Numbered from the stretch's first letter, positions 42,401 through 56,187 are shown. The stretch is 64,000 nucleotides of DNA from a virus (IMGVR_UViG_3300042562_001017:17086-81085); one strand, 5' to 3'. Notes: a model not told the origin generated them from the letters alone. Program-made: numbers and translations.

Positions 42401-44051
42401 TAAAGGAATTGTAGCTAATGCTAATTTAGGAGAAATGATATTTCAAACTATTGATGCTGGAGCTAACATAGTTAACATTAGAGCTTTATCTAAAAATAAA
42501 TTATCAGACGAACAACTTAACAATTTAGTAGATTTAATATATTATAAACTATCAACAGGAGAAAATACTATAACTGTTAATGGTAAAGAGCAAACTATAG
42601 TTGGTAATCAATCTGTTGGTAGAGGTATAGTAGATAGTTTAATTCTAATTGCAGCTAGACAAAATAAAGAAAAACAGATATTCTTTAAAAAGAATGGAAG
42701 TTTAGTTGTTGGTAGAAAAGAATTTACTTTTGAAAATAGTCCTGAAGTTGTTAAACAAGCTATATATGAAACATTATTGGCTGGTAATAATGAAGTTAAC
42801 TTTAAAAAAGATATAAAACCTGATTCTGATTTTATGCTTCCTGCATTGATTGATGGAGAATGGAAAGGTAAAACTACAACATATAATGATTATATTTTTG
42901 GTGGAGAAAATCCTTTAATTGGAACTTTTGTAGATAGTGAAACTCCATTTATTAATAGTTACTATGGTTATAAAATGGATGAAAACGGATATGTTACTGA
43001 CCCAATTGAAGAAACAAAACCTGAACCTATATATGTTATAGATGTTGATTTTGATGATGAAGGAAGAGCTATGCCTACATATAGTACTGAACCAGAAGTT
43101 AAAGTTGTTACAGATGCTAAAGCTGATATAGAAAGAAGAAGGCAAGAAGAATTAAATAAAGAAACTCCCATAAAAAACGAAAATATAACTGTAAATGATG
43201 GGACAAATAATTTAATATTTAAAATTATAACTTATAAAGATGGAAGTACACTAGTTAGGCACATAAAGACAAATGAAACTACAGCAGATAACGCAAGTAA
43301 AAATTTCCAAAGTTACCCCACATTAGAAGATTTTCAAAATTTACTTAAATATGATTTTGATGAAAATGCAAAAATTATAAAGACAGAACTTGTAAAGGAT
43401 GATTATACTGATAAACAATCACAAGACATTAAAGCTGCTAAAGAAAAAACAATCAATGCTAAATATGATGCAGAACTAGCTGCTTTAGAAAGTAAAGTTG
43501 TAACACCTGTACAAAAAACTAATATAGAAAAAAGAATTAACGATACTATATCAAAAGTATTTGGGTCTGAATCTTTATTTAATTTTGATACAAATCAACC
43601 AGGTAAAATTGTTGAAGGTGAATTTATACCTGATAATTTAGGTTCTCAAATATTTGAGGCTATGAATAAAACTCTTAAAGGTGAAGTAGTACAAACAAAT
43701 AAAATAGAAGCTGGAAAATTATTTAAAGAATACGCTAAAACTGTACATCCTGATAAAAATACACAATCTGAAGAACGTCAAATTATAGCTGAAGCATTTT
43801 TTAAAGCAATGCAAACAGCTAAAGAACAAGGAAGAGTTGATATATTAAATGAATTAAAAACTAAATTTGATACAGAACTAGCAGCTTTAGAAAGTAAACC
43901 TGAAACAGTTGACAATTCTGAAATTATTAAGATTCAAGAAGATATGAAACAAGATGCAGATGAATCTATTAGTGATTGTAATGGAAAAACTCCTGCTTTA
44001 CCTGATGGTAAAAATTTAAGTGGAAAAGCAAATAAATACAAAAAGAAATAA
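39408..44051 (+). CDS. large ejection/cargo protein with a C-terminal J-domain-like cassette
   Basis: G/A-rich membrane-like N-terminus, EAGEEGIQ motif, coiled coils; HPD at 43746-43754. Confidence 0.8.
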   Translation: MPFTKNQNGELVYVESASPINAQLENIRGVDLRKYEPYIGGESEYIKGPYDQKSWNDERAEGQSSISKIGNTLGQGLGTFLTATLSTAGTLAGAGAGAIGQIGDAITGEDNTDFMDTMLNNPLNQSISELDKYIKEDLLPTYYTQEQQESLISAATGTELVNGLGFMLSAMIPGAGITKALGGISKLGTMAKLGTLEANVAKSIAMGAMKAETGQVALALGKFMSKVPSVTGAVVGRIGESAMEANQTYESLIAEGIDEETAKRQRDNVFYGNMALAVSDVAQYTRWFKPNPFERIIKNTAEKGIGYAVKQVGKKEAISEILKESSQEAGEEGIQFLLQKGAEKAAKEPGKYSFGTGVLGSMNELFTTVEGQKSMLLGAVLGGGVGTILKGVNSKQVNAQLQSTVDELNANPTFSSEKFIKNTEGKYILNPEFVKAQTVYANLETKREEAIAKGDLESAELIDKLQFNNLVASRVQANKFDDLIEELEVMGKATDVELEQYFGQVPTDKQGNKMSASQIATTKIEEAKALKRNIESLRLIPQFQNLSTPAFNLLTETTIRQDAINRQIQDVDKQLSNIAPDFTTGELTPPNKVRLDSLTETRKALVDQYTSLNKTLELFTAKPEKLEKKADEIAEKTNKAFEKKIDDEIKTSIEADEVIENGIKNGTPIIIKNADGTTKTVTYQDGNYVEQDGIFVEEIEVKQGVINELNEQNSADVIDNDIDDVEESTINYSIKKPNIHSSSIQGHNFKKNSDGTIDRTEKQKETTVAGKIIYQLNGLFKRFIEYSSKALNTPLVRKATSEPTIYSFVATIGEVTDEELNSINSDRAFFAKENNVSLPPVTREDLMSNPAFIPISLQLQANGKNVGGAVTRMHNPDYIYRTQEFDAIMENENIVDKQGAIDSLLEQYTTYRKQLIDKIKTGQKVNLLVDTKSGGIMNVTPMIDGKMQVNPITDTFKHINEYESGLYVDNVQLMPNGIGVVTEIDEKGNGIIEFSNGNKGIVANANLGEMIFQTIDAGANIVNIRALSKNKLSDEQLNNLVDLIYYKLSTGENTITVNGKEQTIVGNQSVGRGIVDSLILIAARQNKEKQIFFKKNGSLVVGRKEFTFENSPEVVKQAIYETLLAGNNEVNFKKDIKPDSDFMLPALIDGEWKGKTTTYNDYIFGGENPLIGTFVDSETPFINSYYGYKMDENGYVTDPIEETKPEPIYVIDVDFDDEGRAMPTYSTEPEVKVVTDAKADIERRRQEELNKETPIKNENITVNDGTNNLIFKIITYKDGSTLVRHIKTNETTADNASKNFQSYPTLEDFQNLLKYDFDENAKIIKTELVKDDYTDKQSQDIKAAKEKTINAKYDAELAALESKVVTPVQKTNIEKRINDTISKVFGSESLFNFDTNQPGKIVEGEFIPDNLGSQIFEAMNKTLKGEVVQTNKIEAGKLFKEYAKTVHPDKNTQSEERQIIAEAFFKAMQTAKEQGRVDILNELKTKFDTELAALESKPETVDNSEIIKIQEDMKQDADESISDCNGKTPALPDGKNLSGKANKYKKK
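43459..43898 (+). repeat. 38-bp intragenic direct repeat (43459-43496 and 43861-43898, 35/38 identical)
   Basis: Encodes K[YF]DxELAALESK twice. Confidence 0.85.
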
Positions 44052-44052
44052 T

Positions 44053-44060
44053 TATCTTTG
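44053..44060 (+). promoter_or_regulatory. Bacteroidota -7 box TATCTTTG
   Basis: 6 nt before ATG 44067. Confidence 0.55.
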
Positions 44061-44066
44061 TATCGT

Positions 44067-47000
44067 ATGTCAAAATCTTGTATAGACCCAAACTTACCTC
44101 AAGTGAGGCAGTTTGTAAAAAAAATGCAACCTACATTTAGCAGTTTTCTAAATGATACTCAAATAGTAGGTTTATTAAACAATTGGTTAGATGATAATCA
44201 AACTTCATCATTTCCTACTGCGGAAGAACTAATTGCGTTTTATTATAAAAAAACAGAGTCTGTACCTGACATAGAGAATATTTTAGATATACTCCAATCA
44301 TTATATTTTGAGTGGATAATGGATTTTTCTGAATCTCCAGTTATTACTCGTAAAATTATTAATGAATATAGTGCTGATGTATTAGAAACTTTGCCTCAAT
44401 TTTTGAGAGATGAAGGAATGAATCACATTGCTGATAACTTTAAAGAATACATTCAGTTATTAAATGCTACTAGATTTCAACATCTTTCTGTTCCTATTGA
44501 TGATAGTTTTGATGAAGATTCTAATTCTAAAGATAAGATAGGAGAGTTTTCTTCTAACATGGTTGATTTAATGGCTAGAGGTTCTGATGAAGTTCAGTAT
44601 CTTTTTGCTTCATTAAAAAGTGATGAAATGACTTATGGTTTAGCTAGACCAATAAATTCTAATTATGTATGGGGAGTTGTTAGTAATTTATTAGCTAATA
44701 GCGTTAGTTATCCTGAAGGCATACAAATATTACAAGCAAATTCTTATAAATATCCTTTTATTAATCAAATTTTAGATAGATTAGGTGTTAATGGTAATGA
44801 TATAGCTTATTCATCTTTACAAGATTCATTTGCTGAATCATTTAACAAAGCTAATTATGATATAACTGTTGCACAAGTTGGTGAAAAACAATCATACAGT
44901 GAAGTTGATATGAAAACTAAAAATAGTTTAATCAATCAATTTAAATCTAATTTTAGAACTTCTAAATATGCTAAAAAATTAAGTGGTAAAACTGTAGTTA
45001 ATTATGAAGCTATTAAAGATATGTTAGTAGATAAACCTACTTCAGAACAAAGTCTAGCTTTATTAAATGCAATGGGTATTCCTTTAACAGAATTGCCTTC
45101 TTATTTAGAATTACCTGCTAGTTATATAATGGCGTTTGTTAAAAAACATCCTAATATTGAATGGTTAGATGAAGGTTTTGGTAGAGATACTGAAAGAGGT
45201 AATTTAGATAAAATATTAAGTTATTTAGTTAGCAAAGAAAAAGAAGTAATTAGAACTTCTGTTAGAAATGCAGAAGGAGAAACTATCAATACTAACTCTA
45301 ATCATAATTATTTTAGTAGATTATTTAATGGTTTAAAAAGTCTTACTAAAAGAAATTTATTTGAAAATATGTTAGTTAGTGCATTAAAACCTAATATATC
45401 TTCAGGATTAAAAGAACGTAATGGAAGTGAATCTAAAAACTTTAACAAGTTAACTTTAGGTGAAATTTATCTTACTAAGATAAACAACATGTTTAGTTCA
45501 GAACCTTCTATAAATATTCCAGTTACTTCAGATAAAACATTAGTTAGAAGTTTAAAATTTACTAAACCTCTTAGCGGTAATCAAGAAGAATATTATAATG
45601 GTTATATGGCTTATACTGCTATTGGACCTAAATTATATACTAGATTATTTGAAGCTTATCAAAGAGATACAGTTAGTAATTTTCATCCTGATTGGAAATA
45701 TGGTGCAGAAAACCCTATTGATTTTTGGCATGGTAGAGGAGAAGTTGAAGGTGTGTTAGGAATTGTAACTAAACCTTTAAATAAAGAAGAATTTAAAACT
45801 GCTTTTCAAAAATGGTTAGCTTTTCAACAAGGTGAGTTAAAAAAATCATTAGTTTCTAGCGGAGCAATTGTAATGGAAAACGGTAATCCTATTCCTAAAT
45901 TTGTTATGCCTAAAATTAGTGAACCTAATTTTATAACTAAATTAAATACTACATTAGATTTAATTAATTTTAATGAGTTTTTATTTGGTGTAGAAATTAC
46001 TCAAGAAATGTATGGTTCAATGGTAGCTGTTAAACCTGATAACTTTTTTAAACGTAATGCTGGAGGTGTAGCTGAAGGTAGACAAGTTAGAGTTGATGCT
46101 GCTAGAGATACTATTGTTCAAAACGATAGGTCTAATCTTCCTATTCCTATGAATTATCCTATTAATAAAATTAAAGTAATGATTCATGCTGAAACTATGG
46201 CTTCGTCTAATGATGAAGATTTAAAAAAGTTTCATCCTGGATATAGAGATGATGCTATTAATGTAGATGATGCTCAAGGTACTATGCCTTTAGAAATATA
46301 TAGAGAAGTTTTAAGTAGAGCTTCTCAATGGAGTGATGCTCAAGAACAAGCTTTTCAAAAATTAATAAAAGGTCAAAAATTAGGAAAAGAATATAAAGGT
46401 ATATTTCCTCCTATAAAACCTGTAGGTTATTCTTTAGTTACTGTTAAAGGTAAAAACGGAATAGAATATAAAGTTCCTGTATATATTAAGACTTCGGTTT
46501 ACCCTATATTTCAAAGTGATGTTGTTGGAACATTAAATGAAGATAAGTATAATTTAATGAGAGAAAAAGGTATAGGATTAGTTATACCTAAAAGCGGAAT
46601 TAAAATGGCTAACCCTAAAGAGTTACGTGATTTATTTAAAGATGGAACTATAGATTTTAATGAATCTGCAATTGTAGATTTTCCTATGGAAGATTTTAGA
46701 ATTCAGTTAGACATTAATCAAAAAACAAGTTCTCGTCAATTACAAGGAACTCAGCAACGTAAGTTAGTTTATATGGATTTGTTTGAGAATGGAGAAGCTA
46801 CTGACCCTCAATACAAACAATGGTTAGACGAAAATATTGAAACATTAAAAGAAATTTCTAAAATTGAAGAAGATAAATTAAATGATAAAGCTGGTATAGT
46901 TAACGGAGAAATAACTAATTATAAAAAATTAGTTGATATGTTAAATCAAGAATTACTTTCTAGAAACTTACCTGTTAACATTATTGAGGCTATAAAAACT

Positions 47001-50000
47001 ATTATTGACGAGGGAGGAAACTTGCTTCATCCTATTGATGGTATGCCTTCAAGACAAAAGTTAATGAATTTACTTAACTCTATAGTTACTAATAAATTAA
47101 TTAAACTTTATACTCATGGTTCTGCTTTAGTACAAGTATCTCAACATGGTTGGGAATTAAAACCAGGAAGTACTGTAGATACTAAAACATCTATTGATTT
47201 TGTTAGTGATACTCATAAACAAGATTATATAGATAATAATGGATTAAAGTTTTTATCTTTAGGTAAAAATACTGGAGCTGCTCAAATTATTCTTCCTGCT
47301 AAATACAAAGAATTTGTAAGAAAAGGAGAAGATGGTAAATATATTATTGATGATAAAAGATGTTTAATTAATATAGGTTATCGTATTCCTACTCAAGGTC
47401 ATAACTCTATGCTTCATTTAGAAGTAGTAGGTTTCTTACCAGAACATTTTGACCAAATGATTATAATGCCTAGAGAAATTACTACTCAAGGTGGTTCTGA
47501 CTTTGACGTGGATAAAATGAATCTTTTTATACCTAATGTTAGAGAGGTAGATGGTAAATTAGTATTTGTTGATGAGTCTATTGATGGTGATGCTTTATGG
47601 AAAGCTGGTTATAAATCTGGTGATGAAGCTGGAGATAAATTATTAACTGCTATTTTTAATGATGTTACTTCTATTGAAGAAGAACCTGAAGAAATTGCAT
47701 CAAAAGAAGATTTTTTACAAAAATTAAGATTAGAAGTTCTTCAAAATAAATTAATTACTCAATCATTAAGAATATTAGAAGACCCTAAAGTTAGAGAACA
47801 ATTATTAACTCCTAACTCTGCTGATACATTAAAAGCTGAAGCTAACGAGTTAACTAAAGAGTTAACAAAAAGAAAATTACCTACTATTAAAATTGTTCCT
47901 ACTTGGAAAAATATGTTAAGTAGTAGAACATTAAGTGAAATTGCTAATCAAATGTCAGCAGCTAAAGCTTTAGTTGGAATATTTGCTCAACAAGTTACTA
48001 ATCATGTACTTGCTCAACAAGTAGGTTTGCATTTTAAATCAGGAAGACCTTTGTTTTTTGAACATAATACTGTTAACATAAATGGTAAAGAAGAAATATC
48101 ATTATCAGGAGTTAAAAGTAAAGATGGCAGTTATGTTATATCTAACATGTTAGGTAATGAATATTTAACTGCTGCTGTAGATGCTGCAAAAGAAGATTAT
48201 CTTTCTGAATTAGGAGTAACTTTAGCTACTGGAGATGTTACTGCTGCTTTTACTAGAGTAGGGGGAAATAATAAATACTTAAGATATTGGATTAAAAATC
48301 CTATAGTTCAAGAATACTTAAAAGAAGTTGAATTAAATAAATCTTTAATTGTTAAAGGTAAAGAAGCTAAAAGTAAAAAGAATATATTACAAAATATAAC
48401 TAAAAAATACAAAACTAGGTTAGAATATTTTGTAGATAAATATGATAATAATTCTGAAGAAGCTGCTAAAATGTTAGCTAGTAGAAGTAAAAGAACTATT
48501 AGCATTGATAATGTAAAAGCATTAGCTTTACGTGATAAAACAAATGATGAAATGTCAATTGATTTATTAAATGACTTTTTATATTTTGAGGATATGGCAA
48601 ATGTTATACGTCAAAATATAGCTAATACTTCTTTTGATGTTAAAGGTCCTGGTAAAGATATAGTTGAAACTAAATTACAACAATTAAGTTATGAGAATTT
48701 TATTAAAGGTATGGCTAACAATAAAGGTTATACTTTAGCTACTATTGTTAATAACGAACAAGCTCCTTATGAAAATTTAATACGTAATACAGTTCTTGAT
48801 GTGTTTTATCAAAAATCTTTTACTTTCGTACAATCTATATATAAGGATTTAGTTTTGTTACAAAAAAATGATTTTATAACAAGTATTGTTGATAATTTAA
48901 TAGTTCCTAGTGAGTATGTAACTAAAAAAGCTACTCCTGAAGAAGCTACTTTAATATACGGTAGTATAATTAACTATATTATTCAACAAAACAATCCTAT
49001 TAAAAACTCATTGTTTTATGGAGATAATACTTTAGCTAAAAGAATTCAAAAAATTCAAACTGACCCTACTAATGTTCTTTATAACAATTATATAGTTCAA
49101 TCTATTCAAGCTGAAGAATCAGGTAAAACTGATGTACCTTCACTTATAGGATTTAAAGATAAAAACATTAACTCTTTAGAAGCTAATTTCATAACTAAAT
49201 CTTTTGGTGAAATTAAAGAAATGAATAAAGAGTTATATGATGATATGATACTTGCTTCACTTTATCAATCAGGTGTAGTTCAATCTCCATTATCTTATTA
49301 TAGTTTAATTCCTTATAATGATATTTTACCTATTATTAATAAAGCTTTGTCTCAACAATCTGAAATCATAGGTAATCCTAAACAAGTTAATAATGCTATA
49401 ACTGAAGTATTATCTAATATTGGAGATAAATTAGATAACATTCAAAAAGTATTTTTAAAATCTTCTGATATATCTGGAGATTTAAATGGTACTGTAACTA
49501 TTGTTTCAGAAAAAAGTAGAGAAAAAGAATTTATTAGGTTAAGTGTAACTATGCCTGATGGAACTTCTAAAGTAGGTTTGTATGAAAAATACTATGGAGA
49601 TAAATATAAATTTGTACCTAGTAAAAACTATAGAACTTTATTCTACAATTTATCTTCAGAACAAGAAATAGAAAATGAAGAAGAAGATTTTATTGAAAAT
49701 GTAGATGAATTTGAAGATATGTCAATTAGAGAAGAAATAAACATTTATGCTGGTACAGGAGAAAATGCTGAGTTAAGTAATTTTGCTATTAGACCTTTTA
49801 CAACTAATGTAGAAACTTCTTCTGGTAATAAACAATATACTTTTCAATCTGTAGAACAAGGATTTCATTTTTATAAAGCAGTAATGGCTAATAATCCGCA
49901 AATAGCAGCACAAATTTTAAAAACTACTAATGGAGGAACATTAAGAAATTTAACAAATAGAAATAATCTTAAACTGACTCCTGAACAAGTTATAGAATGG

Positions 50001-50789
50001 GATAATACTTCTAAATCAATAATGTTAAATTTAATGTACGATTCTTATGTTCAAAATCCTCAAGCTGCTCAAAAGTTATTAGCTACTGGAAATGCTATTA
50101 TAACTCATAAAGTTAGAGAAATTGAACAAGATAATGGTAGATTTTCAGAAGTTGTTATGACTGTAAGAGATATGTTAAGAGAAGAAATAAATGAAATGCA
50201 ATCTTTAATAACTTTTGAAGAAGAACCTTCATCTGGTTATAGAGAAAGAACAATTAAAAACGCATCTGCTGACGCTACTATTGCAATAGCAGTAGATTTT
50301 AATTCTGCTGGAGAATTACTTACTAAAAAATCTGTATTAGGTCAAAATAAAAAATATATTTCAATTGATGCTAACACTTTAACAGTTACTCAAGAAAGAG
50401 TAGATAAAATAGTAGAACAGTTAAATTCAGTTAATGCTAAAACATTAAACATTGCAGGTAATGGTATTTATACTATGAAAGGTAAATATACTCAACAACA
50501 AGTTGATGATTTTACTTATGATTTATTAAATAAAGTTGTAAACTCACCTAATCTTAAAACTAAAATAGAAAGTATTAGAAGTGGTGGACAAACAGGATTT
50601 GATGAAGCAGGTGCTAAAGCTGGAATTAAATTAGGATTGCCTACATTAGTTCTTGCTCCTAAAGGTTGGAAATTTAGAAATGAACTTGGTGTAGATATAT
50701 CTAATGAACAACAATTTAAAGATAGATTTACTCAAAGCGATGATAATCTTCCAGACGTAGGACAAAATGATTTAAAATGTTATAAATAA
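44067..50789 (+). CDS. virion-packaged two-barrel RNA polymerase with C-terminal NADAR and SLOG-like domains
   Basis: Catalytic GSDFDVDK (47499-47513), YRIPTQ and DDAQG motifs; about 2240 aa, as for crAss-like vRNAPs. Confidence 0.92.
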   Translation: MSKSCIDPNLPQVRQFVKKMQPTFSSFLNDTQIVGLLNNWLDDNQTSSFPTAEELIAFYYKKTESVPDIENILDILQSLYFEWIMDFSESPVITRKIINEYSADVLETLPQFLRDEGMNHIADNFKEYIQLLNATRFQHLSVPIDDSFDEDSNSKDKIGEFSSNMVDLMARGSDEVQYLFASLKSDEMTYGLARPINSNYVWGVVSNLLANSVSYPEGIQILQANSYKYPFINQILDRLGVNGNDIAYSSLQDSFAESFNKANYDITVAQVGEKQSYSEVDMKTKNSLINQFKSNFRTSKYAKKLSGKTVVNYEAIKDMLVDKPTSEQSLALLNAMGIPLTELPSYLELPASYIMAFVKKHPNIEWLDEGFGRDTERGNLDKILSYLVSKEKEVIRTSVRNAEGETINTNSNHNYFSRLFNGLKSLTKRNLFENMLVSALKPNISSGLKERNGSESKNFNKLTLGEIYLTKINNMFSSEPSINIPVTSDKTLVRSLKFTKPLSGNQEEYYNGYMAYTAIGPKLYTRLFEAYQRDTVSNFHPDWKYGAENPIDFWHGRGEVEGVLGIVTKPLNKEEFKTAFQKWLAFQQGELKKSLVSSGAIVMENGNPIPKFVMPKISEPNFITKLNTTLDLINFNEFLFGVEITQEMYGSMVAVKPDNFFKRNAGGVAEGRQVRVDAARDTIVQNDRSNLPIPMNYPINKIKVMIHAETMASSNDEDLKKFHPGYRDDAINVDDAQGTMPLEIYREVLSRASQWSDAQEQAFQKLIKGQKLGKEYKGIFPPIKPVGYSLVTVKGKNGIEYKVPVYIKTSVYPIFQSDVVGTLNEDKYNLMREKGIGLVIPKSGIKMANPKELRDLFKDGTIDFNESAIVDFPMEDFRIQLDINQKTSSRQLQGTQQRKLVYMDLFENGEATDPQYKQWLDENIETLKEISKIEEDKLNDKAGIVNGEITNYKKLVDMLNQELLSRNLPVNIIEAIKTIIDEGGNLLHPIDGMPSRQKLMNLLNSIVTNKLIKLYTHGSALVQVSQHGWELKPGSTVDTKTSIDFVSDTHKQDYIDNNGLKFLSLGKNTGAAQIILPAKYKEFVRKGEDGKYIIDDKRCLINIGYRIPTQGHNSMLHLEVVGFLPEHFDQMIIMPREITTQGGSDFDVDKMNLFIPNVREVDGKLVFVDESIDGDALWKAGYKSGDEAGDKLLTAIFNDVTSIEEEPEEIASKEDFLQKLRLEVLQNKLITQSLRILEDPKVREQLLTPNSADTLKAEANELTKELTKRKLPTIKIVPTWKNMLSSRTLSEIANQMSAAKALVGIFAQQVTNHVLAQQVGLHFKSGRPLFFEHNTVNINGKEEISLSGVKSKDGSYVISNMLGNEYLTAAVDAAKEDYLSELGVTLATGDVTAAFTRVGGNNKYLRYWIKNPIVQEYLKEVELNKSLIVKGKEAKSKKNILQNITKKYKTRLEYFVDKYDNNSEEAAKMLASRSKRTISIDNVKALALRDKTNDEMSIDLLNDFLYFEDMANVIRQNIANTSFDVKGPGKDIVETKLQQLSYENFIKGMANNKGYTLATIVNNEQAPYENLIRNTVLDVFYQKSFTFVQSIYKDLVLLQKNDFITSIVDNLIVPSEYVTKKATPEEATLIYGSIINYIIQQNNPIKNSLFYGDNTLAKRIQKIQTDPTNVLYNNYIVQSIQAEESGKTDVPSLIGFKDKNINSLEANFITKSFGEIKEMNKELYDDMILASLYQSGVVQSPLSYYSLIPYNDILPIINKALSQQSEIIGNPKQVNNAITEVLSNIGDKLDNIQKVFLKSSDISGDLNGTVTIVSEKSREKEFIRLSVTMPDGTSKVGLYEKYYGDKYKFVPSKNYRTLFYNLSSEQEIENEEEDFIENVDEFEDMSIREEINIYAGTGENAELSNFAIRPFTTNVETSSGNKQYTFQSVEQGFHFYKAVMANNPQIAAQILKTTNGGTLRNLTNRNNLKLTPEQVIEWDNTSKSIMLNLMYDSYVQNPQAAQKLLATGNAIITHKVREIEQDNGRFSEVVMTVRDMLREEINEMQSLITFEEEPSSGYRERTIKNASADATIAIAVDFNSAGELLTKKSVLGQNKKYISIDANTLTVTQERVDKIVEQLNSVNAKTLNIAGNGIYTMKGKYTQQQVDDFTYDLLNKVVNSPNLKTKIESIRSGGQTGFDEAGAKAGIKLGLPTLVLAPKGWKFRNELGVDISNEQQFKDRFTQSDDNLPDVGQNDLKCYK

Positions 50790-50796
50790 AATTAAA

Positions 50797-53700
50797 ATGA
50801 CACAACCAAATTGTAGATTACAAATAAAAAGAAATGTAGCTCAAAAAGTTATAGAAAAAGCTACTAATGATTATAACAATCAAGTTATTACTAAAATTAA
50901 TTCTTATACTATAGGAGTTAATTTTAGTCCTAGATTTGAAAAATCTAAAGACCGTAAACAAGCTGAAGCTATTGCTAATAGAATTGCAGATGAAGCTAAT
51001 GCTACATTTCAATCTAAAAGTTATGGTAAAGTTGCTACAGTTAATTATGAAAAATTAAATGTACATGTAGAGCTAAAACCTTCTGAAAGATTATTAACTG
51101 CTTATGAGCAAAAAGCTTTAAAAGCTAATAACAAATTACCTAATTTAGGTCAATTAGTTATGTTTAATTCAGTACAAGGTGATACTGCTTCTAATCAAGC
51201 TGTTACTAAAATACTTGATACATTTAAAGAAAGATTTAAAATTGATTATGAAATAATTAGTCCTGAACAAGCTCAAGAAGTATTAAAAGATACTGAAGAA
51301 AAATATACTAATGAAACTGGATTTTATTTTGACAATAAAGTATATATTGTTGATTACGGTAACGGATTAGATTGGGATTCAGCTATTCATGAATATGGTC
51401 ATCCTTTTATGAGAGCTTTAAATAAATATAATCCTAATTTATTTACTTCTATTGTTCAACAAATAGCTAATACTCCTGAAGGAGAACAATTACGTGATGA
51501 AATTATTGCAGCAGGATATCCTGAAAATCAAATAGCTGAAGAATTAGCTGTTAGAGCATTAACTAAATTAGCTAAAAAGAATATTAATCCTGAAACAGGA
51601 AGTTTATTTGAAAAAGCAGTCGATAAGTTATTAAAGTTTTTAACTTCAATGATGAGAGATTTGTTTGGTAAAAAAGATTTAAAATTATCTACTTTATCTC
51701 CAAATACTACTATTGAAGAGTTAGCTGATATATTTAGTTTAAAACAAGGATTTATTGAAACTAAATCTATTGAGGTTAAACCAGGAGTACAAGAACTATT
51801 TGATTCTAATCCTGAATTAGCTAATCAGGTATATGAAGCTTTAGGGTTTAAAGTAAGTAATTCTTCTATTGCTTTAAATAAAATTAACAATACTGAAATA
51901 GGAAAAAATGTTACTTTATTTATAAACAATATGCCTGTTGAATATAAAAGGGTTAGTGAAAATTATTTTGAAGGCAAACAAATAACTAAAAAACAAGAAA
52001 CTGATTTTATAAATAGTTCAGAATCTGTTACTACTTCTATTGAAAAGTTTATAGAAAAAGAAGGTACTACAATTAGATATAGTTTAGATGAGTTAATTAA
52101 TTTTTATTTAGAAAAATTACCTAAATTTCAAGCAACATCACAACAAAAACAACAAGCTTTAGAAGCATATTCTCAATATTTAGATACTGTATTTCCTGAT
52201 AGTCAAGTAAAAGATATTGTTTATCATGGAACACCTGATGGCAGATTTGATAATTTTGACATTAATCAAGTTGGAAAAAACACAAAGCAATCTACTAAAG
52301 GTATTTATTTTACTGACAGTAAAAAAACTGCAGATTTTTATGCAGAAGGTTCTATAGATTTTAGTCAATTTGAATCTTTAGAAGAATACAATGCAGTTAA
52401 AACAGCAAAAGTTTTTTCTGCAATTTTAAATGCTAAAAATTTAAAATTAGTTAACAATCCTCAAGCTCAAGATAGACAGGGAGATGCAGTACTTAGAACT
52501 AAAGAAAAATTATCTGACAAAGGATTTGTTGGAGAATTAGATTATGCTTATCAATATATTGTATTTGAACCAGAACAAATTCATATATTAGGTTCTAAAC
52601 AAGATATAGAAGGATTTAAAAAGTTTACTCGTAATCAAAATAAACCATCTTTTAATAGAAAAGTTTCTCAACAAAACGTATCTACTACTTTAGATACTTT
52701 ACAAAGTAAAGTAAATGAAAAAGATGGAATGTTATCAGTTGACGGATTTGATAATATTTGGAAAAGAATATTTAAAACAGTTAAAGGAAAATATTCAGCT
52801 GCTAAAACTGAAAAGCAATTAGATGCTGAAAAAGTTCGTAATGAAGCAGATATAGTTATTCAAAATATCCAATCTGATATTATTAAAAAAGCTTTTCCTC
52901 TTGAAAATACTTATGTTGCTGATTATGTAGAGACTCCTGGAACTAAAGGAATGTATGATTTATTGTCTAAACAACTAGCTCCAATTATAGAAAAAGCTAA
53001 ACAAAGAGGTTCTGTAATGAAAGCTGAAATCTTTGTAGGTAATTCTGTTAGTTCTAAAGGAGATATAGTAAGTATATTAGAAATAGACCCTGAAGGTAAT
53101 TATTATATTTATGATTTAGGTACTAGATATAGTAATGTTTCAGCTAAAAATAAATATAAAAGTTTAAGTGAATGGACTAGTCAAATTAACCAAGTTAAAA
53201 CTATTCTTGAAACTGGAGATAGTGTTTTAGGTTTAAAAGCAGGTAAAGTTGAAGGTGCATATTTATTAGAATTAGAAATTGATTATAAAACAAAAGGATT
53301 AAATATTAAATCTAAAGCTACCTATAATGGTACAAATCAAAATGCAATTAATAAGTTTTTAAAAAATAGAGAGATTAAAGCTATGAATATAGTAGCTCCT
53401 AAATTTTTAAGAACTAAATCTGAAAAGATTAATGATTTTATTGATAGATTGTATTTGCAAATTGACGCTTTAACACAAAAAACTCCTAATACAGATATAG
53501 CTAAAGCTGCTAACAATGCTTTAATAGAATCTAAATTAAAATTAGCTCAAGAATTACAAATTGAAGCTAATACTAAAAATTTAATTAATCACGTTCAAAC
53601 TGAATTAGAAGAAATACAAAATATTTTATCTGAAGCTGATACTGCTGGATTACCTGATAGTAGTGATTTGTTATCGCAATTAGATGTATATAGTAAAATA

Positions 53701-56187
53701 CCTAATTTTATAGACAAACCTACTCCTGAACAACGTAAAGAAATGTTATATGTTCAAGGATTATCTGTTCAATTAAAAAATGAAATTTTAGAATATGAAC
53801 GTAAACTAATACAAAATGCAGCAGAAAAAACTGGAATTACTAGTTTTGTATCTGATATTTTTGCAGCAGTTAAAGATATAGGTTGGTTTAGAAAAGCAAC
53901 TATGGGTATATCTAAAATAGATAATCCTTTAGTAGCTACAGCTTTTAGATTATATACTGATGCAATGGGTAAAGCTAGAACTTCTGTTCAAACATTAGCT
54001 GATAAAATACTAGAAGCTTCTAAAGAATATAAAAGATTTACTGGAACAGATGATTATAAATTAATTATTGAAGGTAATAGTTTAGTTGGTGAATACACTC
54101 CTGATTTCTGGAAAGAATTTAGTAAAGCTAAAGACAATAATAATTGGGAATGGTTAAGTGAAAATGTAGTTTATAATAAAGAAAGATATTTAGCTAAAAG
54201 AGAAAATATGTTAAATTTCTTAGATTCTCAAAGAAATAAAAACATTAACGCTTTAAAAATAGCTAACCCTTCAATTTCAGAACAAGAATTAACTAAAGAA
54301 TTAGTTGAATTAGAAAAAACTGAAATGCGTAAATGGGATAATGCTAATAAGAATAATCTTTCTATTCATTTTACTCCTAAGTCTAAACATATTAATCCTA
54401 AATGGAAAGAAATTAAAGAAGGTAAATATAAAGGAACTCCTGTTGAAGCATTTTACGATTTATATCGTTCTGTATTAGAAGGAGCAAATGAATTATTTCC
54501 TGAACATATTAAATCTAATTTTATACCTAGTTTTAATCAAGAATTTATTGAAAAAACTGCTAATTTAGGTTTAGCTGGAGCAATTAGAGCATCAGCTTCA
54601 GGAATTTTAGATGATTTATCTACAAATTACGATGAAAACTTATATGGAGAAATAGATTCTGCTACTGGTATGCCTATAGATAAATTATTTATTCCAGGTT
54701 TAAATAATAAAGAAAATAAATCAATGGATTTAGGTGTAGTTTTATTTAGATTTATGGAAGGAGTTTATAGATATAAAGAACTTTCTGAAGTAGAACAAAC
54801 TATACTAGCTGTACAAAGACAGTTACGTAATGGTAAAACTAAAGTAGTTGATAGTTTAGGTAGAGAATTACCTGAAGGTAAAGTTGCTGATAGAAATGTT
54901 ACTAACAATCGTACTGCTGATGCTTTTGATGATTGGGTTAAATCTTCAATTTACAATCAAAAAAGAGTCGACGAGGGTTCTTTTGAAATTACTGATAAAA
55001 GTGCTGGTGGATTTTTAAAACTAATGGGTCTTATTAAAGAAGGTGATACTAAAAAGATTTCTTATGCTAGAATAGCTGATAAATTAATTAGATATACTTC
55101 TTTACATAACTTAGCTTTTAATATGTATTCTCCATTAGTCAATTTATTTGGTGGAGCTTCTAACATGTATATGTCTGGTGCTGGAGGATTAGATTACAGT
55201 AATGAAAATTTAACTAAAGCTTTTAGTTATGTAATGCAAGGTAAAACTGGAATATCATCAGAAGATGCTCAAAAAGCAAAGTTAATATATGAATATTTTG
55301 CTATTGAACAATCAGATGTTAACAGAGATATAGCTAATGAATTATCTAACAGATATTTAACTAAACTTACTGATAAGTATAATGGTATGACATTGCAAAG
55401 AGAATCTGAAAATGTTTTACAAAGAGCAGGTTTAATCGCTATGATATTATCAAACAAACATTCTATGAAATGGAATGATTTTAGTGTAGTTGATGGTAAA
55501 TTAGTTGTAGAAGATAACAATATGACTAAAGAAACATTTAGACAAAAAGTTATAACAGTTAATAGTAAAAATATAGGTGGTGTAAATCCTGATGATTTAG
55601 CTTCAGCTAAAAGATATATTGCTGGTAGAATGATTATGCAACATAGAAGTTGGCTACCTGCAATGGCTATTGAAAGATTTGGACAAAAACAATTTGATTA
55701 TGTATTAGAAAGAGATGTTGAAGGAAGATATAGAACAGCAGTTAGATTATATAAAGCATTGTTTAGCAAATCTTTATTAGAGAAATTAACTCCAATGGAA
55801 CAAGCTAATCTTAAAGCTACTAGAATGGAAGCTATGTTATTATTGGGAACTGCTTTGTTAGTAATTGCTTTAAAAGGAGTTGATGATGATGAAAAAGAAA
55901 AATCTTGGTATAAGATATCAAATAAAATTTCGACAAGGGCTTTAGGTGAATTAGGGTTTTTTGTTGACCCAACTTTACAATCTCAATATCAGATTTTATT
56001 ATCTCCAGCAGCATCAACAGGTGTTTTAGAAGATGTTGGAGGATTAGGCAAGTCTATATGGAAAGAAGCTTTTGGAGATGAAGAAGAAAAAAAGAGAGCT
56101 AAACCTTTGAAAAAAACTGTTAAGTTATTTCCTTTAGCTAACAAAGGATATTCGTTTTTAGAAGATTTAAATGTAATAGAAGATTAA
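50797..56187 (+). CDS. large polyvalent ejection protein (zincin, ADP-ribosyltransferase-like, degenerate PD-(D/E)xK)
   Basis: HEYGH at 51388-51402; VYHGT...GIYFTDS...YIVFEPEQIH; helical C-terminal region. Confidence 0.8.
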   Translation: MTQPNCRLQIKRNVAQKVIEKATNDYNNQVITKINSYTIGVNFSPRFEKSKDRKQAEAIANRIADEANATFQSKSYGKVATVNYEKLNVHVELKPSERLLTAYEQKALKANNKLPNLGQLVMFNSVQGDTASNQAVTKILDTFKERFKIDYEIISPEQAQEVLKDTEEKYTNETGFYFDNKVYIVDYGNGLDWDSAIHEYGHPFMRALNKYNPNLFTSIVQQIANTPEGEQLRDEIIAAGYPENQIAEELAVRALTKLAKKNINPETGSLFEKAVDKLLKFLTSMMRDLFGKKDLKLSTLSPNTTIEELADIFSLKQGFIETKSIEVKPGVQELFDSNPELANQVYEALGFKVSNSSIALNKINNTEIGKNVTLFINNMPVEYKRVSENYFEGKQITKKQETDFINSSESVTTSIEKFIEKEGTTIRYSLDELINFYLEKLPKFQATSQQKQQALEAYSQYLDTVFPDSQVKDIVYHGTPDGRFDNFDINQVGKNTKQSTKGIYFTDSKKTADFYAEGSIDFSQFESLEEYNAVKTAKVFSAILNAKNLKLVNNPQAQDRQGDAVLRTKEKLSDKGFVGELDYAYQYIVFEPEQIHILGSKQDIEGFKKFTRNQNKPSFNRKVSQQNVSTTLDTLQSKVNEKDGMLSVDGFDNIWKRIFKTVKGKYSAAKTEKQLDAEKVRNEADIVIQNIQSDIIKKAFPLENTYVADYVETPGTKGMYDLLSKQLAPIIEKAKQRGSVMKAEIFVGNSVSSKGDIVSILEIDPEGNYYIYDLGTRYSNVSAKNKYKSLSEWTSQINQVKTILETGDSVLGLKAGKVEGAYLLELEIDYKTKGLNIKSKATYNGTNQNAINKFLKNREIKAMNIVAPKFLRTKSEKINDFIDRLYLQIDALTQKTPNTDIAKAANNALIESKLKLAQELQIEANTKNLINHVQTELEEIQNILSEADTAGLPDSSDLLSQLDVYSKIPNFIDKPTPEQRKEMLYVQGLSVQLKNEILEYERKLIQNAAEKTGITSFVSDIFAAVKDIGWFRKATMGISKIDNPLVATAFRLYTDAMGKARTSVQTLADKILEASKEYKRFTGTDDYKLIIEGNSLVGEYTPDFWKEFSKAKDNNNWEWLSENVVYNKERYLAKRENMLNFLDSQRNKNINALKIANPSISEQELTKELVELEKTEMRKWDNANKNNLSIHFTPKSKHINPKWKEIKEGKYKGTPVEAFYDLYRSVLEGANELFPEHIKSNFIPSFNQEFIEKTANLGLAGAIRASASGILDDLSTNYDENLYGEIDSATGMPIDKLFIPGLNNKENKSMDLGVVLFRFMEGVYRYKELSEVEQTILAVQRQLRNGKTKVVDSLGRELPEGKVADRNVTNNRTADAFDDWVKSSIYNQKRVDEGSFEITDKSAGGFLKLMGLIKEGDTKKISYARIADKLIRYTSLHNLAFNMYSPLVNLFGGASNMYMSGAGGLDYSNENLTKAFSYVMQGKTGISSEDAQKAKLIYEYFAIEQSDVNRDIANELSNRYLTKLTDKYNGMTLQRESENVLQRAGLIAMILSNKHSMKWNDFSVVDGKLVVEDNNMTKETFRQKVITVNSKNIGGVNPDDLASAKRYIAGRMIMQHRSWLPAMAIERFGQKQFDYVLERDVEGRYRTAVRLYKALFSKSLLEKLTPMEQANLKATRMEAMLLLGTALLVIALKGVDDDEKEKSWYKISNKISTRALGELGFFVDPTLQSQYQILLSPAASTGVLEDVGGLGKSIWKEAFGDEEEKKRAKPLKKTVKLFPLANKGYSFLEDLNVIED

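What the first reader, a model, noticed from the sequence alone, without database searches (positions are those of the whole stretch)
49737..50740. Virion RNA polymerase carries NADAR and permuted SLOG domains at its C-terminus
Seen: after an acidic linker the RNAP continues with INIYAGTGENAELSNFAIRPF...FQSVEQGFHFYKA...KLLATGNAIITH (NADAR/YbiA pattern LSNF, SVE..F..K, LLATG). It then has GYRERTIKNASADATIA...LNIAGN...IRSGGQTGFDEAG, a SLOG/YpsA-MoCo-carrier-like domain with the SGGQTG motif placed after the LNIAGN strand, which suggests permutation. Established: crAss-like vRNAPs are injected with the DNA, and NADAR enzymes remove ADP-ribose from guanine modified by DarT1 anti-phage toxins. Inference: the polymerase brings its own ADP-ribose eraser and a nucleotide-binding module to the incoming genome as pre-packaged counter-defence.
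Basis: partly seen in the sequence, partly recalled or inferred. Interest (0 to 1): 0.75.

Follow-up and report, generated by a model that had tools for sequence, protein, structure and literature searches.

The report
ADP-ribose-processing cassette in crAss-type polymerase
A lake-water crAss-like phage has spliced two small enzyme domains, a NADAR ADP-ribose remover and a SLOG nucleotide-binding domain, into the tail of the giant RNA polymerase that such phages pack into the particle, so they probably enter the host with the DNA as ready-made counter-defence; the strategy is known, this carrier is not described in papers, and the function is untested.

Summary
ORF 44067-50789 (2240 aa) is a crAss-type two-barrel virion RNA polymerase (phi14:2 gp66, E 8e-33; DFDVD motif). 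Residues about 1887-2222 hold a NADAR domain (Pfam above cut-off; fold Z 15.9 to 8BAU) and a cpYpsA-type SLOG domain (Pfam above cut-off; Z 9.2 to 3IMK). The SLOG segments are in swapped order relative to the Pfam model and 3IMK.

The NADAR keeps the Glu and Lys that NADARs need for activity. At the third catalytic position it has His, as in T4 AdfN, a proven anti-DarT1 factor.

The pair is an insertion of about 329 aa, not an end-fusion. Polymerases 96-99% identical in the core lack it or carry other tails, and it sits upstream of a retained Cys-bearing C-terminal peptide. In one lake metagenome, higher-depth contigs with near-identical flanks replace exactly this stretch. Related polymerases carry NADAR or SLOG at N-terminal, internal or C-terminal sites.

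Best reading: a swappable ADP-ribose-processing cassette on a polyvalent injected protein. The anti-DarT1 role is only one candidate. Delivery, cleavage and activity are untested.

This scan has met the same theme, and the terminal-cysteine pattern, on many other genomes. Rating: new variant of a known kind.

The parts
44067..50789 (+). Gene for the 2240-aa crAss-type virion RNA polymerase (vRNAP). A TTG at 44058 is an alternative start.
   Evidence: ORF listed. phmmer to 6VR4 (phi14:2 gp66) gives E 8e-33. There are 226 homologues at E<=1e-10.
47499..47513 (+). DFDVD catalytic motif of the DPBB domain.
   Evidence: Aligned to gp66 DFDID. Coordinates.
49650..49742 (+). Acidic linker (LSSEQEIENEEEDFIENVDEFEDMSIREEIN). 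This is the last stretch shared with module-less relatives.
   Evidence: Alignment with P0122-P0127. pLDDT is about 50.
49743..50729 (+). The 329-aa insert (NADAR + SLOG). It is absent from P0124 and P0125, whose cores are 95-96% identical to the window's.
   Evidence: BLASTP break points q1895/q2225. Alignment. Lake-metagenome contigs at 81-102x depth leave the window sequence at 49708/49719 and rejoin at 50729.
49725..50195 (+). NADAR domain, His variant. Catalytic-position residues are Glu1930 (49854), Lys1937 (49875) and His2014 (50106).
   Evidence: Pfam PF08719 above cut-off. Z 15.9 to 8BAU and 14.8 to YbiA. Residue equivalences come from the profile alignment to 8BAU.
49728..49741 (+). 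Left copy of the exact 14-nt direct repeat AGAGAAGAAATAAA (encodes REEIN) bracketing the NADAR unit.
   Evidence: the repeat finder family D3, spacing 450 nt.
50178..50191 (+). Right copy of the 14-nt direct repeat (REEIN inside ...DMLREEINEMQS).
   Evidence: The peptide resembles the linker EEEMNE(M/T)Q of relatives P0122 and P0124.
50205..50735 (+). SLOG domain of the cpYpsA type, with segment order swapped relative to Pfam PF12694 and 3IMK. LNIAGN strand at 50445; SGGQTGFDE loop at 50580-50606.
   Evidence: Pfam above cut-off. PHROG 10774 is colinear, E 3e-32. 3IMK Z 9.2. Swapped order shown.
50733..50786 (+). Retained C-terminal peptide QSDDNLPDVGQNDLKCYK, with Cys2238 (codon 50778-50780).
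   Evidence: 100% identical in P0124 and P0125. 115 of 120 homologues have a Cys in their last 8 residues, although Cys makes up only 0.12% of their residues.
44079..44081 (+). Conserved N-terminal Cys5 (MSKSC).
   Evidence: 72 of 74 closer homologues have a Cys at residue 3-6.

Best explanation
The vRNAP of this freshwater crAss-like phage works as a polyvalent carrier. Its catalytic body is conserved. A slot between the acidic linker and a fixed Cys-bearing C-terminal peptide accepts interchangeable small domains.

In this genome the slot holds two domains:
- A NADAR N-glycosidase of the His-variant (AdfN-like) type.
- A cpYpsA-type SLOG nucleotide/ADP-ribose-binding, possibly hydrolytic, domain.

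Shown here: the domain identities, the intact catalytic and binding motifs, the insert boundaries, the presence/absence polymorphism among near-identical polymerases and within a lake population, and the recurrence of the same two domains at other positions of related vRNAPs.

Inferred from homologues: the protein is packaged and ejected with the DNA.

Inferred mechanism: on entry the cassette, fused or perhaps clipped by the zincin of the neighbouring cargo protein, removes base-linked ADP-ribose from phage DNA or early transcripts next to the polymerase. It may also bind or degrade ADP-ribose-derived immune signals, before any phage gene is expressed.
For: - Carrier identity: (6VR4, E 8e-33, DFDVD). 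The muzzle-protein gene in the same block matches crAss_MUZ.
- Domains.
- Catalytic positions: E1930, K1937 and H2014 correspond to E43, K50 and E125 of P. nicotianae NADAR (roles in PMC11543638). His at that position is the signature of phage AdfN-type NADARs, which counter DarTG1. All 12 vRNAP-borne NADARs found share LSN..RP, xVE, K and LTH.
- SLOG: GGQTG.DE and 31 invariant columns across stand-alone and fused homologues.
- Optional insert: P0124 (1918 aa, on a 67-kb contig) equals this protein minus residues 1896-2224. P0122 is 99% identical in the core and carries DUF7831 instead.
- Population polymorphism: in run X11 the flanks are at about 100x and the module at about 16-30x. Higher-depth contigs replace 49709-50728.
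- Mobility: the SLOG is 73% identical to that of P0194, whose core is only 34% identical and where SLOG and NADAR sit N-terminally. The same SLOG (76% identical) is a free 196-aa gene in L003.
- Other cargo in the same family: RecD/PIF1-type helicase, AlkB-like 2OG oxygenase, kinase and ART-PolyVal domains.
- Virion delivery of homologues: PMC10172136 (gp47, gp49 and gp50 found by virion mass spectrometry) and 10.1101/2020.03.07.982082.
- General concept: PMC5512222 and PMC9503650.
Against: - There are no data on packaging, ejection, processing or activity for this protein.
- The host and its defence systems are unknown.
- The Trp equivalent to W133 of P. nicotianae NADAR, a pyrophosphate contact, is missing in this loop variant (QDNGRF).
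- The match to Pfam Phage_30_3 (T4 AdfN family) is far below cut-off.
- T4 AdfN works poorly outside its own DNA-modification context, so activity on unmodified DNA cannot be assumed.
- No viral cpYpsA SLOG has been characterised in the papers I found.
- Near-identical phages do without the module, so it is dispensable.
Confidence: 0.65

Rival explanations
1. Specific anti-DarT1 device. The NADAR removes ADP-ribose from guanine in single-stranded phage DNA modified by a host DarT1, and the SLOG only helps to bind the ADP-ribose moiety.
For: His-variant NADAR as in T4 AdfN, with E and K retained. All NADAR subtypes tested in the literature hydrolyse guanine-ADPr. A polymerase that opens DNA would place the eraser at single-stranded DNA (my inference).
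Against: - It lacks the N-terminal extension of DarT1-linked NADARs. 8BAT aligns only from its residue 48, with Z 7.9.
- PADLOC gives no DarG hit, only PDC-M42C.
- T4 NADAR and YbiA failed to rescue DarT1 toxicity in uninfected cells.
- Iyer et al. argue that phage NADAR+SLOG pairs act on soluble ADPr derivatives.
- The host is unknown.
Confidence: 0.25
2. Signal-quenching module. SLOG plus NADAR binds and cleaves low-molecular-weight NAD/ADPr-derived immune messengers or toxic metabolites (cADPR isomers of Thoeris-type systems, ADPr-1''P and the like) at the moment of entry.
For: This is the published prediction for viral SLOG fused to NADAR, Macro or DUF4326 (PMC9503650). The same SLOG is also found fused to DUF4326, to 5'(3')-deoxyribonucleotidase and to an AAA_28 domain, and the NADAR to ART-PolyVal, which is a nucleotide-processing context. 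The GGQTG.DE ligand loop is conserved.
Against: No biochemical data exist for any cpYpsA-type viral SLOG. A few polymerase copies per virion make a weak sponge unless the module is catalytic. Every experimentally tested NADAR activity so far is on nucleic-acid bases or riboflavin intermediates.
Confidence: 0.3
3. Self-protection against the phage's own injected writer. The downstream cargo protein carries an ART-PolyVal-like domain. The NADAR-SLOG on the polymerase keeps phage DNA, RNA or the polymerase itself free of collateral ADP-ribosylation, as an eraser paired with a writer.
For: ART-PolyVal-like match in ORF 50797-56187 (30.3 bits, E 8e-7). P0029 combines this NADAR type with ART-PolyVal in one polypeptide. 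ART-YbiA toxin-antitoxin pairs exist (PMC11125620 abstract).
Against: The ART match is just below the Pfam cut-off (31.2). ART-PolyVal domains are predicted to modify proteins, whereas NADARs act on base N-glycosidic links. Polymerases 96-99% identical lack the module.
Confidence: 0.12
4. Inert passenger or metabolic enzyme. The pair is a recently captured cassette with no role in infection, or a YbiA/LOG-like housekeeping N-glycosidase.
For: The module is dispensable in near-identical phages. There is a weak NCBIfam match to the riboflavin N-glycosidase domain.
Against: The NCBIfam score is 34 against a cut-off of 73.7. His replaces the YbiA Glu. Motifs are intact and identity to homologues in unrelated contexts is 60-84%. 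The allele is held in 20 lake-water and freshwater runs dated 2016-2025, and it recurs independently at three kinds of positions in vRNAPs.
Confidence: 0.06

Closest known systems
Polyvalent proteins of phages and conjugative elements (Iyer, Burroughs, Anand, de Souza, Aravind 2017, PMC5512222), including N4-like virion RNAPs fused to zincin, ART, lysozyme or PBECR domains
   Same: A giant virion-delivered protein combines a polymerase with variable small conflict domains. A zincin-type protease lies in the same gene block (HEYGH in ORF 50797-56187). Domain content differs between close relatives.
   Different: The carrier is the two-barrel crAss/QDE-1-type RNAP, not the T7-like N4 vRNAP. NADAR and SLOG are not mentioned in that paper (0 occurrences). 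Here the slot is bounded by conserved terminal Cys peptides.
T4 gp30.3 / AdfN and other phage NADAR anti-DarT1 factors (bioRxiv 10.1101/2024.07.11.602962; PMC11125620)
   Same: NADAR fold, conserved Glu and Lys, His in place of the third catalytic acid, and no DarG1-type N-terminal extension.
   Different: AdfN is a free early gene product made after infection. The window's NADAR is fused to a virion protein and to a SLOG domain. The Pfam Phage_30_3 score is far below cut-off (12-16 against 36 bits). The window's NADAR has a shorter C-terminal loop without the Trp.
Viral SLOG-NADAR/Macro/DUF4326 ADPr-processing architectures and virion-packaged NADAR, Macro and Nudix proteins (Iyer et al. 2022, PMC9503650)
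   Same: The same pair of domains, and the same predicted early deployment against NAD/ADPr-based immunity.
   Different: That survey calls these 'typically standalone proteins' and never mentions crAss phages. In the window the pair is inserted in the vRNAP.
Giant proteins of published Crassvirales genomes: cr126_1 QOR59539.1 ('DUF1768 domain-containing protein'), cr130_1 YP_010113266.1 ('DprA-like...'), cr10_1 QOR58745.1, PhiCrAssBcn/crAss001-type 'putative RNA polymerase'
   Same: NADAR and/or the same SLOG type embedded in the giant transcription-block proteins.
   Different: Different positions: N-terminal in Steigviridae, C-proximal in Suoliviridae. The cores are only about 26% identical to the window's. 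These cases are known only as automatic annotations. I found no paper discussing them.
3IMK, 'putative molybdenum carrier protein' of Syntrophus aciditrophicus (Pfam cpYpsA, PF12694)
   Same: Same fold and motifs (SGGQTG.D, R..KN, LNIAG); Z 9.2.
   Different: The segment order is swapped. 3IMK residues 5-41 follow, rather than precede, residues 53-136 in the window protein.

Membership tests
NADAR superfamily (Pfam PF08719) | Profile score above the curated cut-off | tested here: met
   46-49 bits against 35.1. 50.6 bits in the genome scan.
NADAR superfamily (Pfam PF08719) | YbiA-like alpha+beta fold | tested here: met
   8BAU Z 15.9, rmsd 2.4 over 144 residues. 2B3W Z 14.8. Foldseek probability 1.00.
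NADAR superfamily (Pfam PF08719) | Conserved Glu and Lys (E43/K50 of P. nicotianae; E88/K95 of E. coli C7) | tested here: met
   E1930 and K1937 align to them. Their roles are given in PMC11543638.
NADAR superfamily (Pfam PF08719) | ADP-ribosyl N-glycohydrolase activity | not testable with these tools
   Needs an enzyme assay.
AdfN-like phage NADARs (T4 gp30.3, Pfam PF08010) | His replacing the third catalytic acid (E125 position) | tested here: met
   H2014 aligns to E125. All 12 vRNAP NADARs have LTH or FTH. The signature is stated.
AdfN-like phage NADARs (T4 gp30.3, Pfam PF08010) | Profile score above the curated cut-off | tested here: not met
   12-15.7 bits against 36. It shares the signature with this family but is not a member of the Pfam family.
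DarG1 (DarT1-associated NADAR antitoxin) | N-terminal beta-beta-alpha extension, and an operon with DarT1 | tested here: not met
   The domain starts directly after the acidic linker. 8BAT aligns only from its residue 48, with Z 7.9. There is no DarG hit in PADLOC. The neighbours are cargo proteins.
YbiA-type riboflavin-intermediate N-glycosidase (TIGR02464) | Equivalog score above cut-off | tested here: not met
   34.3 bits against 73.7. His replaces the YbiA Glu.
SLOG superfamily, cpYpsA family (Pfam PF12694) | Profile score above cut-off and a Rossmannoid fold like 3IMK | tested here: met
   42-47 bits against 26.2. 3IMK Z 9.2, rmsd 2.3 over 104 residues.
SLOG superfamily, cpYpsA family (Pfam PF12694) | Gly-rich ligand loop (SGGQTG.DE) | tested here: met
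   Invariant G127, G128, G131, D133 and E134 in alignment A4.
SLOG superfamily, cpYpsA family (Pfam PF12694) | Same segment order as the family model and 3IMK | tested here: not met
   Model positions 45-125 come before positions 1-32. The phage family PHROG 10774 is colinear with the window.
crAss-type virion RNA polymerase (phi14:2 gp66) | Sequence homology across the two-barrel core, and a DFDxD motif with Ile or Val at position 4 | tested here: met
   E 8e-33 over residues 633-1161 and 1215-1753, with DFDVD. The I/V rule is stated.
crAss-type virion RNA polymerase (phi14:2 gp66) | Presence in virions and ejection into the host | not testable with these tools
   Shown only for homologues.
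Polyvalent proteins (Iyer et al. 2017) | Multidomain virion-block protein whose accessory domains vary between relatives, with an associated zincin protease | tested here: met
   Variable tails. HEYGH in the next gene. Muzzle gene upstream.

The most novel reading that the evidence does not exclude
The vRNAP tail is a population-level hot-swap slot. Cassettes such as NADAR-SLOG are exchanged by short-homology recombination in linker codons. Two observations point that way: the 14-nt REEIN repeat, and the shared ML.EE / EE(I/M)NE peptides at the joints. The cassettes must stay inside the terminal Cys peptides, which may chain the cargo proteins head to tail.

Because the eraser is tethered to the polymerase, it could act co-transcriptionally on the single-stranded DNA of the bubble and on nascent early RNA. 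That would be a spatially targeted protection that a free enzyme such as AdfN does not provide.
Probability: 0.25. Interest if true: 0.75.

Novelty: new variant of a known kind. Interest (0 to 1): 0.5.

Why it matters
Crassvirales are among the most abundant phages in guts and, as this window shows, also occur in lakes. Most of their giant virion proteins have no assigned function.

If the polymerase doubles as a delivery vehicle for interchangeable ADP-ribose-processing enzymes, that has three consequences:
- It explains part of the length variation of these proteins.
- It predicts which host defences (DarT-type DNA/RNA ADP-ribosylation, NAD-derived signalling) matter for these phages.
- It offers a natural set of matched alleles, the same polymerase with and without the cassette, for direct tests.

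It would also extend NADAR counter-defence from early-expressed free proteins (T4 AdfN) to pre-packaged enzymes that act before any phage gene is expressed.

Tried and rejected
I could not fetch the contigs of P0124 or P0122 to compare DNA junctions, or to see whether module-less relatives keep the ART-bearing neighbour.
- Degenerate DNA-pattern scans for the C-terminal peptide found nothing in viral contigs or metagenome contigs.
- Megablast of the gene against the phage collection gave no match.
- The search for related loci with the last 799 aa returned only 4 loci.
- Two literature searches with the bare terms 'crAss' + 'NADAR' and 'crAss' + 'SLOG' returned only unrelated papers.
- Alignment A2, which mixed NADAR-SLOG and SLOG-NADAR orders, was unusable. 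It was replaced by A3.
- Pfam scans of nine alternative tails named only DUF7831 and a sub-threshold ART-PolyVal.
- B. subtilis YpsA did not appear in either the profile search or the listed fold matches. The relation of this permutation to canonical YpsA order is therefore my reading of the motif order, not a tested result.
- I first read 'EEINEMQS' as a flexible inter-domain linker, then withdrew that. The model places it at the end of the last NADAR helix, which runs straight into the first SLOG strand.
- An assembly chimera was considered and rejected. The stretch is held in 20 lake-water and freshwater runs, and a contig of run X6 spans both junctions of the NADAR unit.
- In run X17, parts of the module have no contig cover. 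That proves nothing.

Full report
**What is there**

The window is the right-hand 64 kb of an 81-kb IMG/VR virus record estimated to be 93% complete. ORF 44067-50789 (an upstream TTG lies at 44058) encodes 2240 residues.

It matches the crystal-structure sequence of the phi14:2 gp66 virion RNA polymerase (6VR4) at E 8e-33 over two long stretches. DFDVD (window 47499-47513) aligns to the catalytic DFDID of gp66. A crassvirus muzzle-protein gene lies upstream (Pfam crAss_MUZ). Giant cargo-type genes flank the polymerase on both sides. The closest annotated polymerases (crAss001, PhiCrAssBcn) are only about 26% identical. Sequencing runs that hold the stretch are lake-water or freshwater metagenomes.

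**The two domains**

- Pfam gives NADAR (46-49 bits, cut-off 35.1) and cpYpsA (42-47 bits, cut-off 26.2).
- PHROGs gives families 1017 and 10774.
- An AlphaFold2 model of the last 379 residues, built on 32 aligned sequences, has mean pLDDT 90.6 and pTM 0.79. Only the acidic linker and the last about 14 residues are disordered.
- Fold searches put P. nicotianae NADAR (8BAU, Z 15.9, rmsd 2.4 over 144 residues) and E. coli YbiA (Z 14.8) first for model residues about 25-185.
- The cpYpsA structure 3IMK comes first (Z 9.2, rmsd 2.3 over 104 residues) for residues 187-298.

**NADAR active site**

A profile of the window's NADAR and its relatives aligns to 8BAU and YbiA (E 4e-6 and 3e-17). Counting along that alignment gives these equivalences to P. 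nicotianae NADAR:

- Glu1930 (SVE) corresponds to E43.
- Lys1937 (FYK) corresponds to K50.
- His2014 (AIITH) corresponds to E125.

Schuller et al. showed the first two are needed for guanine-ADPr hydrolysis. They also report that the third position is Glu in YbiA, Asp in another subfamily and His in phage NADARs (PMC11543638). The preprint on T4 gp30.3/AdfN states that AdfN-like NADARs all carry this His and that AdfN counters DarTG1.

All 12 NADAR domains I found on related vRNAPs share LSN..RP, xVE, Lys at +7 and L(T/F)H.

The window's copy belongs to a loop variant (EQDNGRF) that lacks the Trp equivalent to W133, a pyrophosphate contact. It is not a member of three narrower groups:

- Pfam Phage_30_3: 12-16 bits against 36.
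- The YbiA equivalog: 34 bits against 73.7.
- The DarG1 type: no N-terminal extension and no PADLOC DarG hit.

**SLOG permutation**

Against 3IMK, window-tail residues 188-270 match chain residues 54-136, and residues 303-339 match chain residues 5-41. A profile of 14 homologues gives the same result.

The genome scan places Pfam positions 45-125 at window 50214-50462 and positions 1-32 at 50574-50669. So the domain is permuted relative to the family that Pfam already calls circularly permuted. The phage family PHROG 10774 is colinear with the window, so this order is the norm in phages.

The Gly-rich loop SGGQTGFDE and 31 columns are invariant across fused and free homologues.

Some homologues carry another domain, including NADAR, nested exactly between the LNIAGN strand and the SGGQTG segment. 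That loop therefore tolerates breaks.

**The pair is an insert in a variable slot**

Among 120 listed cluster representatives of the polymerase, those with cores 88-99% identical to the window's have 1918-2080 residues and no NADAR or SLOG.

BLASTP shows that P0124 (1918 aa, on a 67-kb contig) and P0125 align up to query residue 1895. They align again, at 100% identity, over the last 19 residues. The alignment shows the shared ...EQEIENEEEDFIENVD, then divergence, then ...SDDNLPDVGQNDLKCYK. P0122 (99% identical core) has a DUF7831 domain there instead.

HMMs built from the window's two domains find these placements in the other vRNAPs:

- NADAR in 11 and SLOG in 4 of the 120.
- C-proximal in seven.
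- Internal in P0190 and P0224.
- N-terminal in P0194 and P0235.
- Both domains together only in P0194 (order SLOG-NADAR, N-terminal) and P0224.

Domain identities are uncoupled from core identity. In P0194 the SLOG is 73% identical while the core is 34% identical.

The same SLOG also occurs as a free 196-aa gene (76% identical) next to DnaB-like and primase-like genes in L003. It also occurs next to helA in Vibrio phage ICP1.

Other cargo domains in this polymerase family include RecD/PIF1-type helicases, an AlkB-like 2OG oxygenase, a kinase and ART-PolyVal.

An exact 14-nt direct repeat (AGAGAAGAAATAAA, encoding REEIN) brackets the 450-nt NADAR unit. The peptides at the joints resemble the linker of module-less relatives. 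This is compatible with short-homology recombination. In an AT-rich gene such a repeat could also arise by chance.

**Population evidence**

Twenty lake-water or freshwater runs dated 2016-2025 hold at least half of the sampled words of window 49300-51100.

Four runs were laid on the stretch:

- In X6, one contig spans 49597-50578 without differences.
- In X11, the flanks are covered by contigs of depth about 100 and the module by contigs of depth about 16-30.
- Also in X11, a joint at depth 81 leaves the window at 49708 and returns at 50729, with other, unresolved sequence between.
- The loose end after 49719 translates, in frame, to TVENNKSAWD, which resembles the tail of P0126.

Another tail allele on near-identical flanks therefore coexists with this one in that sample and appears to be at higher depth. 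Contig depths are only rough guides.

**Mechanism**

Shown here: the domains, their motifs, the insert, its mobility and its polymorphism.

Inferred from homologues: the protein is packaged and ejected. gp66 is a virion component that transcribes early genes, and crAss001 gp47, gp49 and gp50 were found in virions by mass spectrometry.

Inferred: the cassette acts at entry on ADP-ribose chemistry.

Published NADAR activities cover guanine-ADPr in DNA and RNA, and cytidine-ADPr. Iyer et al. predict that viral SLOG with NADAR or Macro acts on soluble ADPr-derived signals. I found no experiment on a viral cpYpsA SLOG.

I therefore keep the general reading at 0.65. The DNA/RNA-eraser and signal-quencher versions are open sub-hypotheses.

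The next gene encodes a zincin motif (HEYGH) and an ART-PolyVal-like domain just under the Pfam cut-off. This allows two further ideas: proteolytic release of the cassette, and a writer/eraser pairing. Neither is tested.

**Comparison with what is known**

Polyvalent proteins, including N4-like vRNAPs fused to ART, zincin, lysozyme or RNase domains, were described in 2017. Virion-packaged NADAR, Macro and Nudix proteins and SLOG-NADAR fusions were described in 2022. Neither paper mentions crAss phages or the two-barrel vRNAP.

GenBank records of Crassvirales already show the fusions as automatic names: 'DUF1768 domain-containing protein', 'DprA-like...' and 'putative RNA polymerase'. BFVD models of the giant proteins of cr10_1, cr130_1, cr131_1 and cr272_1 are among the top five viral fold matches.

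Searches of the held literature found no discussion of them.

Earlier reports of this scan describe the same theme on many other genomes. My verdict agrees with theirs: a new variant of a known kind.

**In passing**

- The polymerase has only three Cys: residue 5, residue 1099 and the third residue from the end.
- The upstream cargo protein has one Cys, 24 residues from its end.
- The downstream cargo protein has one Cys, at residue 6.
- 115 of 120 homologues have a Cys in their last 8 residues, against a Cys frequency of 0.12%.
- 72 of 74 closer homologues have a Cys at residue 3-6.
- In L005 a 901-aa protein after the polymerase has exactly two Cys, at residue 2 and at the last residue.
- Most of the listed 3500-3900-aa forms, in which extra sequence precedes the polymerase core, have only one or two Cys; P0198, P0201 and P0206 have one, the C-terminal Cys.

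This fits head-to-tail disulfide chaining of cargo proteins, as seen for Cys1715-Cys5 of gp27-gp26 in cyanopodophage A4 (PMC12002296). The scan has reported it before.

It bears on this finding because every NADAR/SLOG insertion, whether N- or C-terminal, lies inside these terminal peptides.

Noticed in passing
window 43977-43979 (Cys1524 of ORF 39408-44051), 44079-44081 (Cys5 of vRNAP), 50778-50780 (Cys2238 of vRNAP), 50812-50814 (Cys6 of ORF 50797-56187): Terminal-cysteine relay. The three consecutive giant cargo proteins have almost no Cys except at the ends that face each other. 115 of 120 vRNAP homologues have a Cys in their last 8 residues, against a Cys frequency of 0.12%. In L005 a 901-aa protein has Cys only at residue 2 and at its last residue. 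Longer forms in which extra sequence precedes the polymerase core (P0198, P0201, P0206) have a single Cys, the C-terminal one. This suggests head-to-tail disulfide chaining. There is a precedent in cyanopodophage A4 (PMC12002296), and the scan has seen the pattern before.
   Followed up: partly
window 50797-56187: The downstream cargo protein has a zincin motif HEYGH at residue 198 and an ART-PolyVal-like domain at residues 474-595 (30.3 bits, cut-off 31.2). That places a possible injected protease and ADP-ribose writer next to the eraser.
   Followed up: partly
proteins P0030, P0036, P0040, P0045, P0073, P0075: In these homologues the SLOG domain is split by an insert of about 150-480 aa, a NADAR by precomputed Pfam in P0040, P0073 and P0075. 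The split is exactly between the LNIAGN strand and the SGGQTG segment, which is the junction created by the permutation.
   Followed up: no
L003 5944-6534; Vibrio phage ICP1 records: The same SLOG type (76% identical) is a free 196-aa gene near DnaB-like helicase and primase-like genes in another viral contig. In ICP1 it lies beside the accessory helicase helA. This is a replication-module context, quite unlike the virion context here.
   Followed up: no
vRNAP core, query residues about 1035-1040, 1160-1216 and 1566 (window about 47160-47190, 47540-47710, 48760): Relatives carry extra segments of about 80-500 aa at these three internal points of the core. Examples are P0167/P0172 at about 1040, P0186-P0189 at about 1160-1216, and P0125, P0166, P0176 and P0180 at about 1566. 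P0190 has its NADAR near residue 1065. These are further insertion hot spots.
   Followed up: no
tails of P0122, P0123, P0126, P0130-P0132, P0163, P0188 etc.: Many relatives end in a conserved module of about 40 aa, W(D/S).L(S/T)...K..L.K.GI(S/T).E.FN.....E....I.C(Y/H)G. This Cys-bearing terminal domain is longer than the window's DNLPDVGQNDLKCYK version.
   Followed up: no
window 49735-49801, run X15: A 30.7-kb contig of another, more abundant phage in the same lake sample ends in a NADAR start (…LPGPETK-INIYAG…) that matches the window for only about 54 nt. Related cassettes therefore circulate among co-occurring phages.
   Followed up: no
window 50776-50783, run X6: One low-depth contig (2.7x) has a 1-nt insertion and a 1-nt deletion around the C-terminal Cys codon. 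This may be an assembly error or a variant of the terminal peptide.
   Followed up: no
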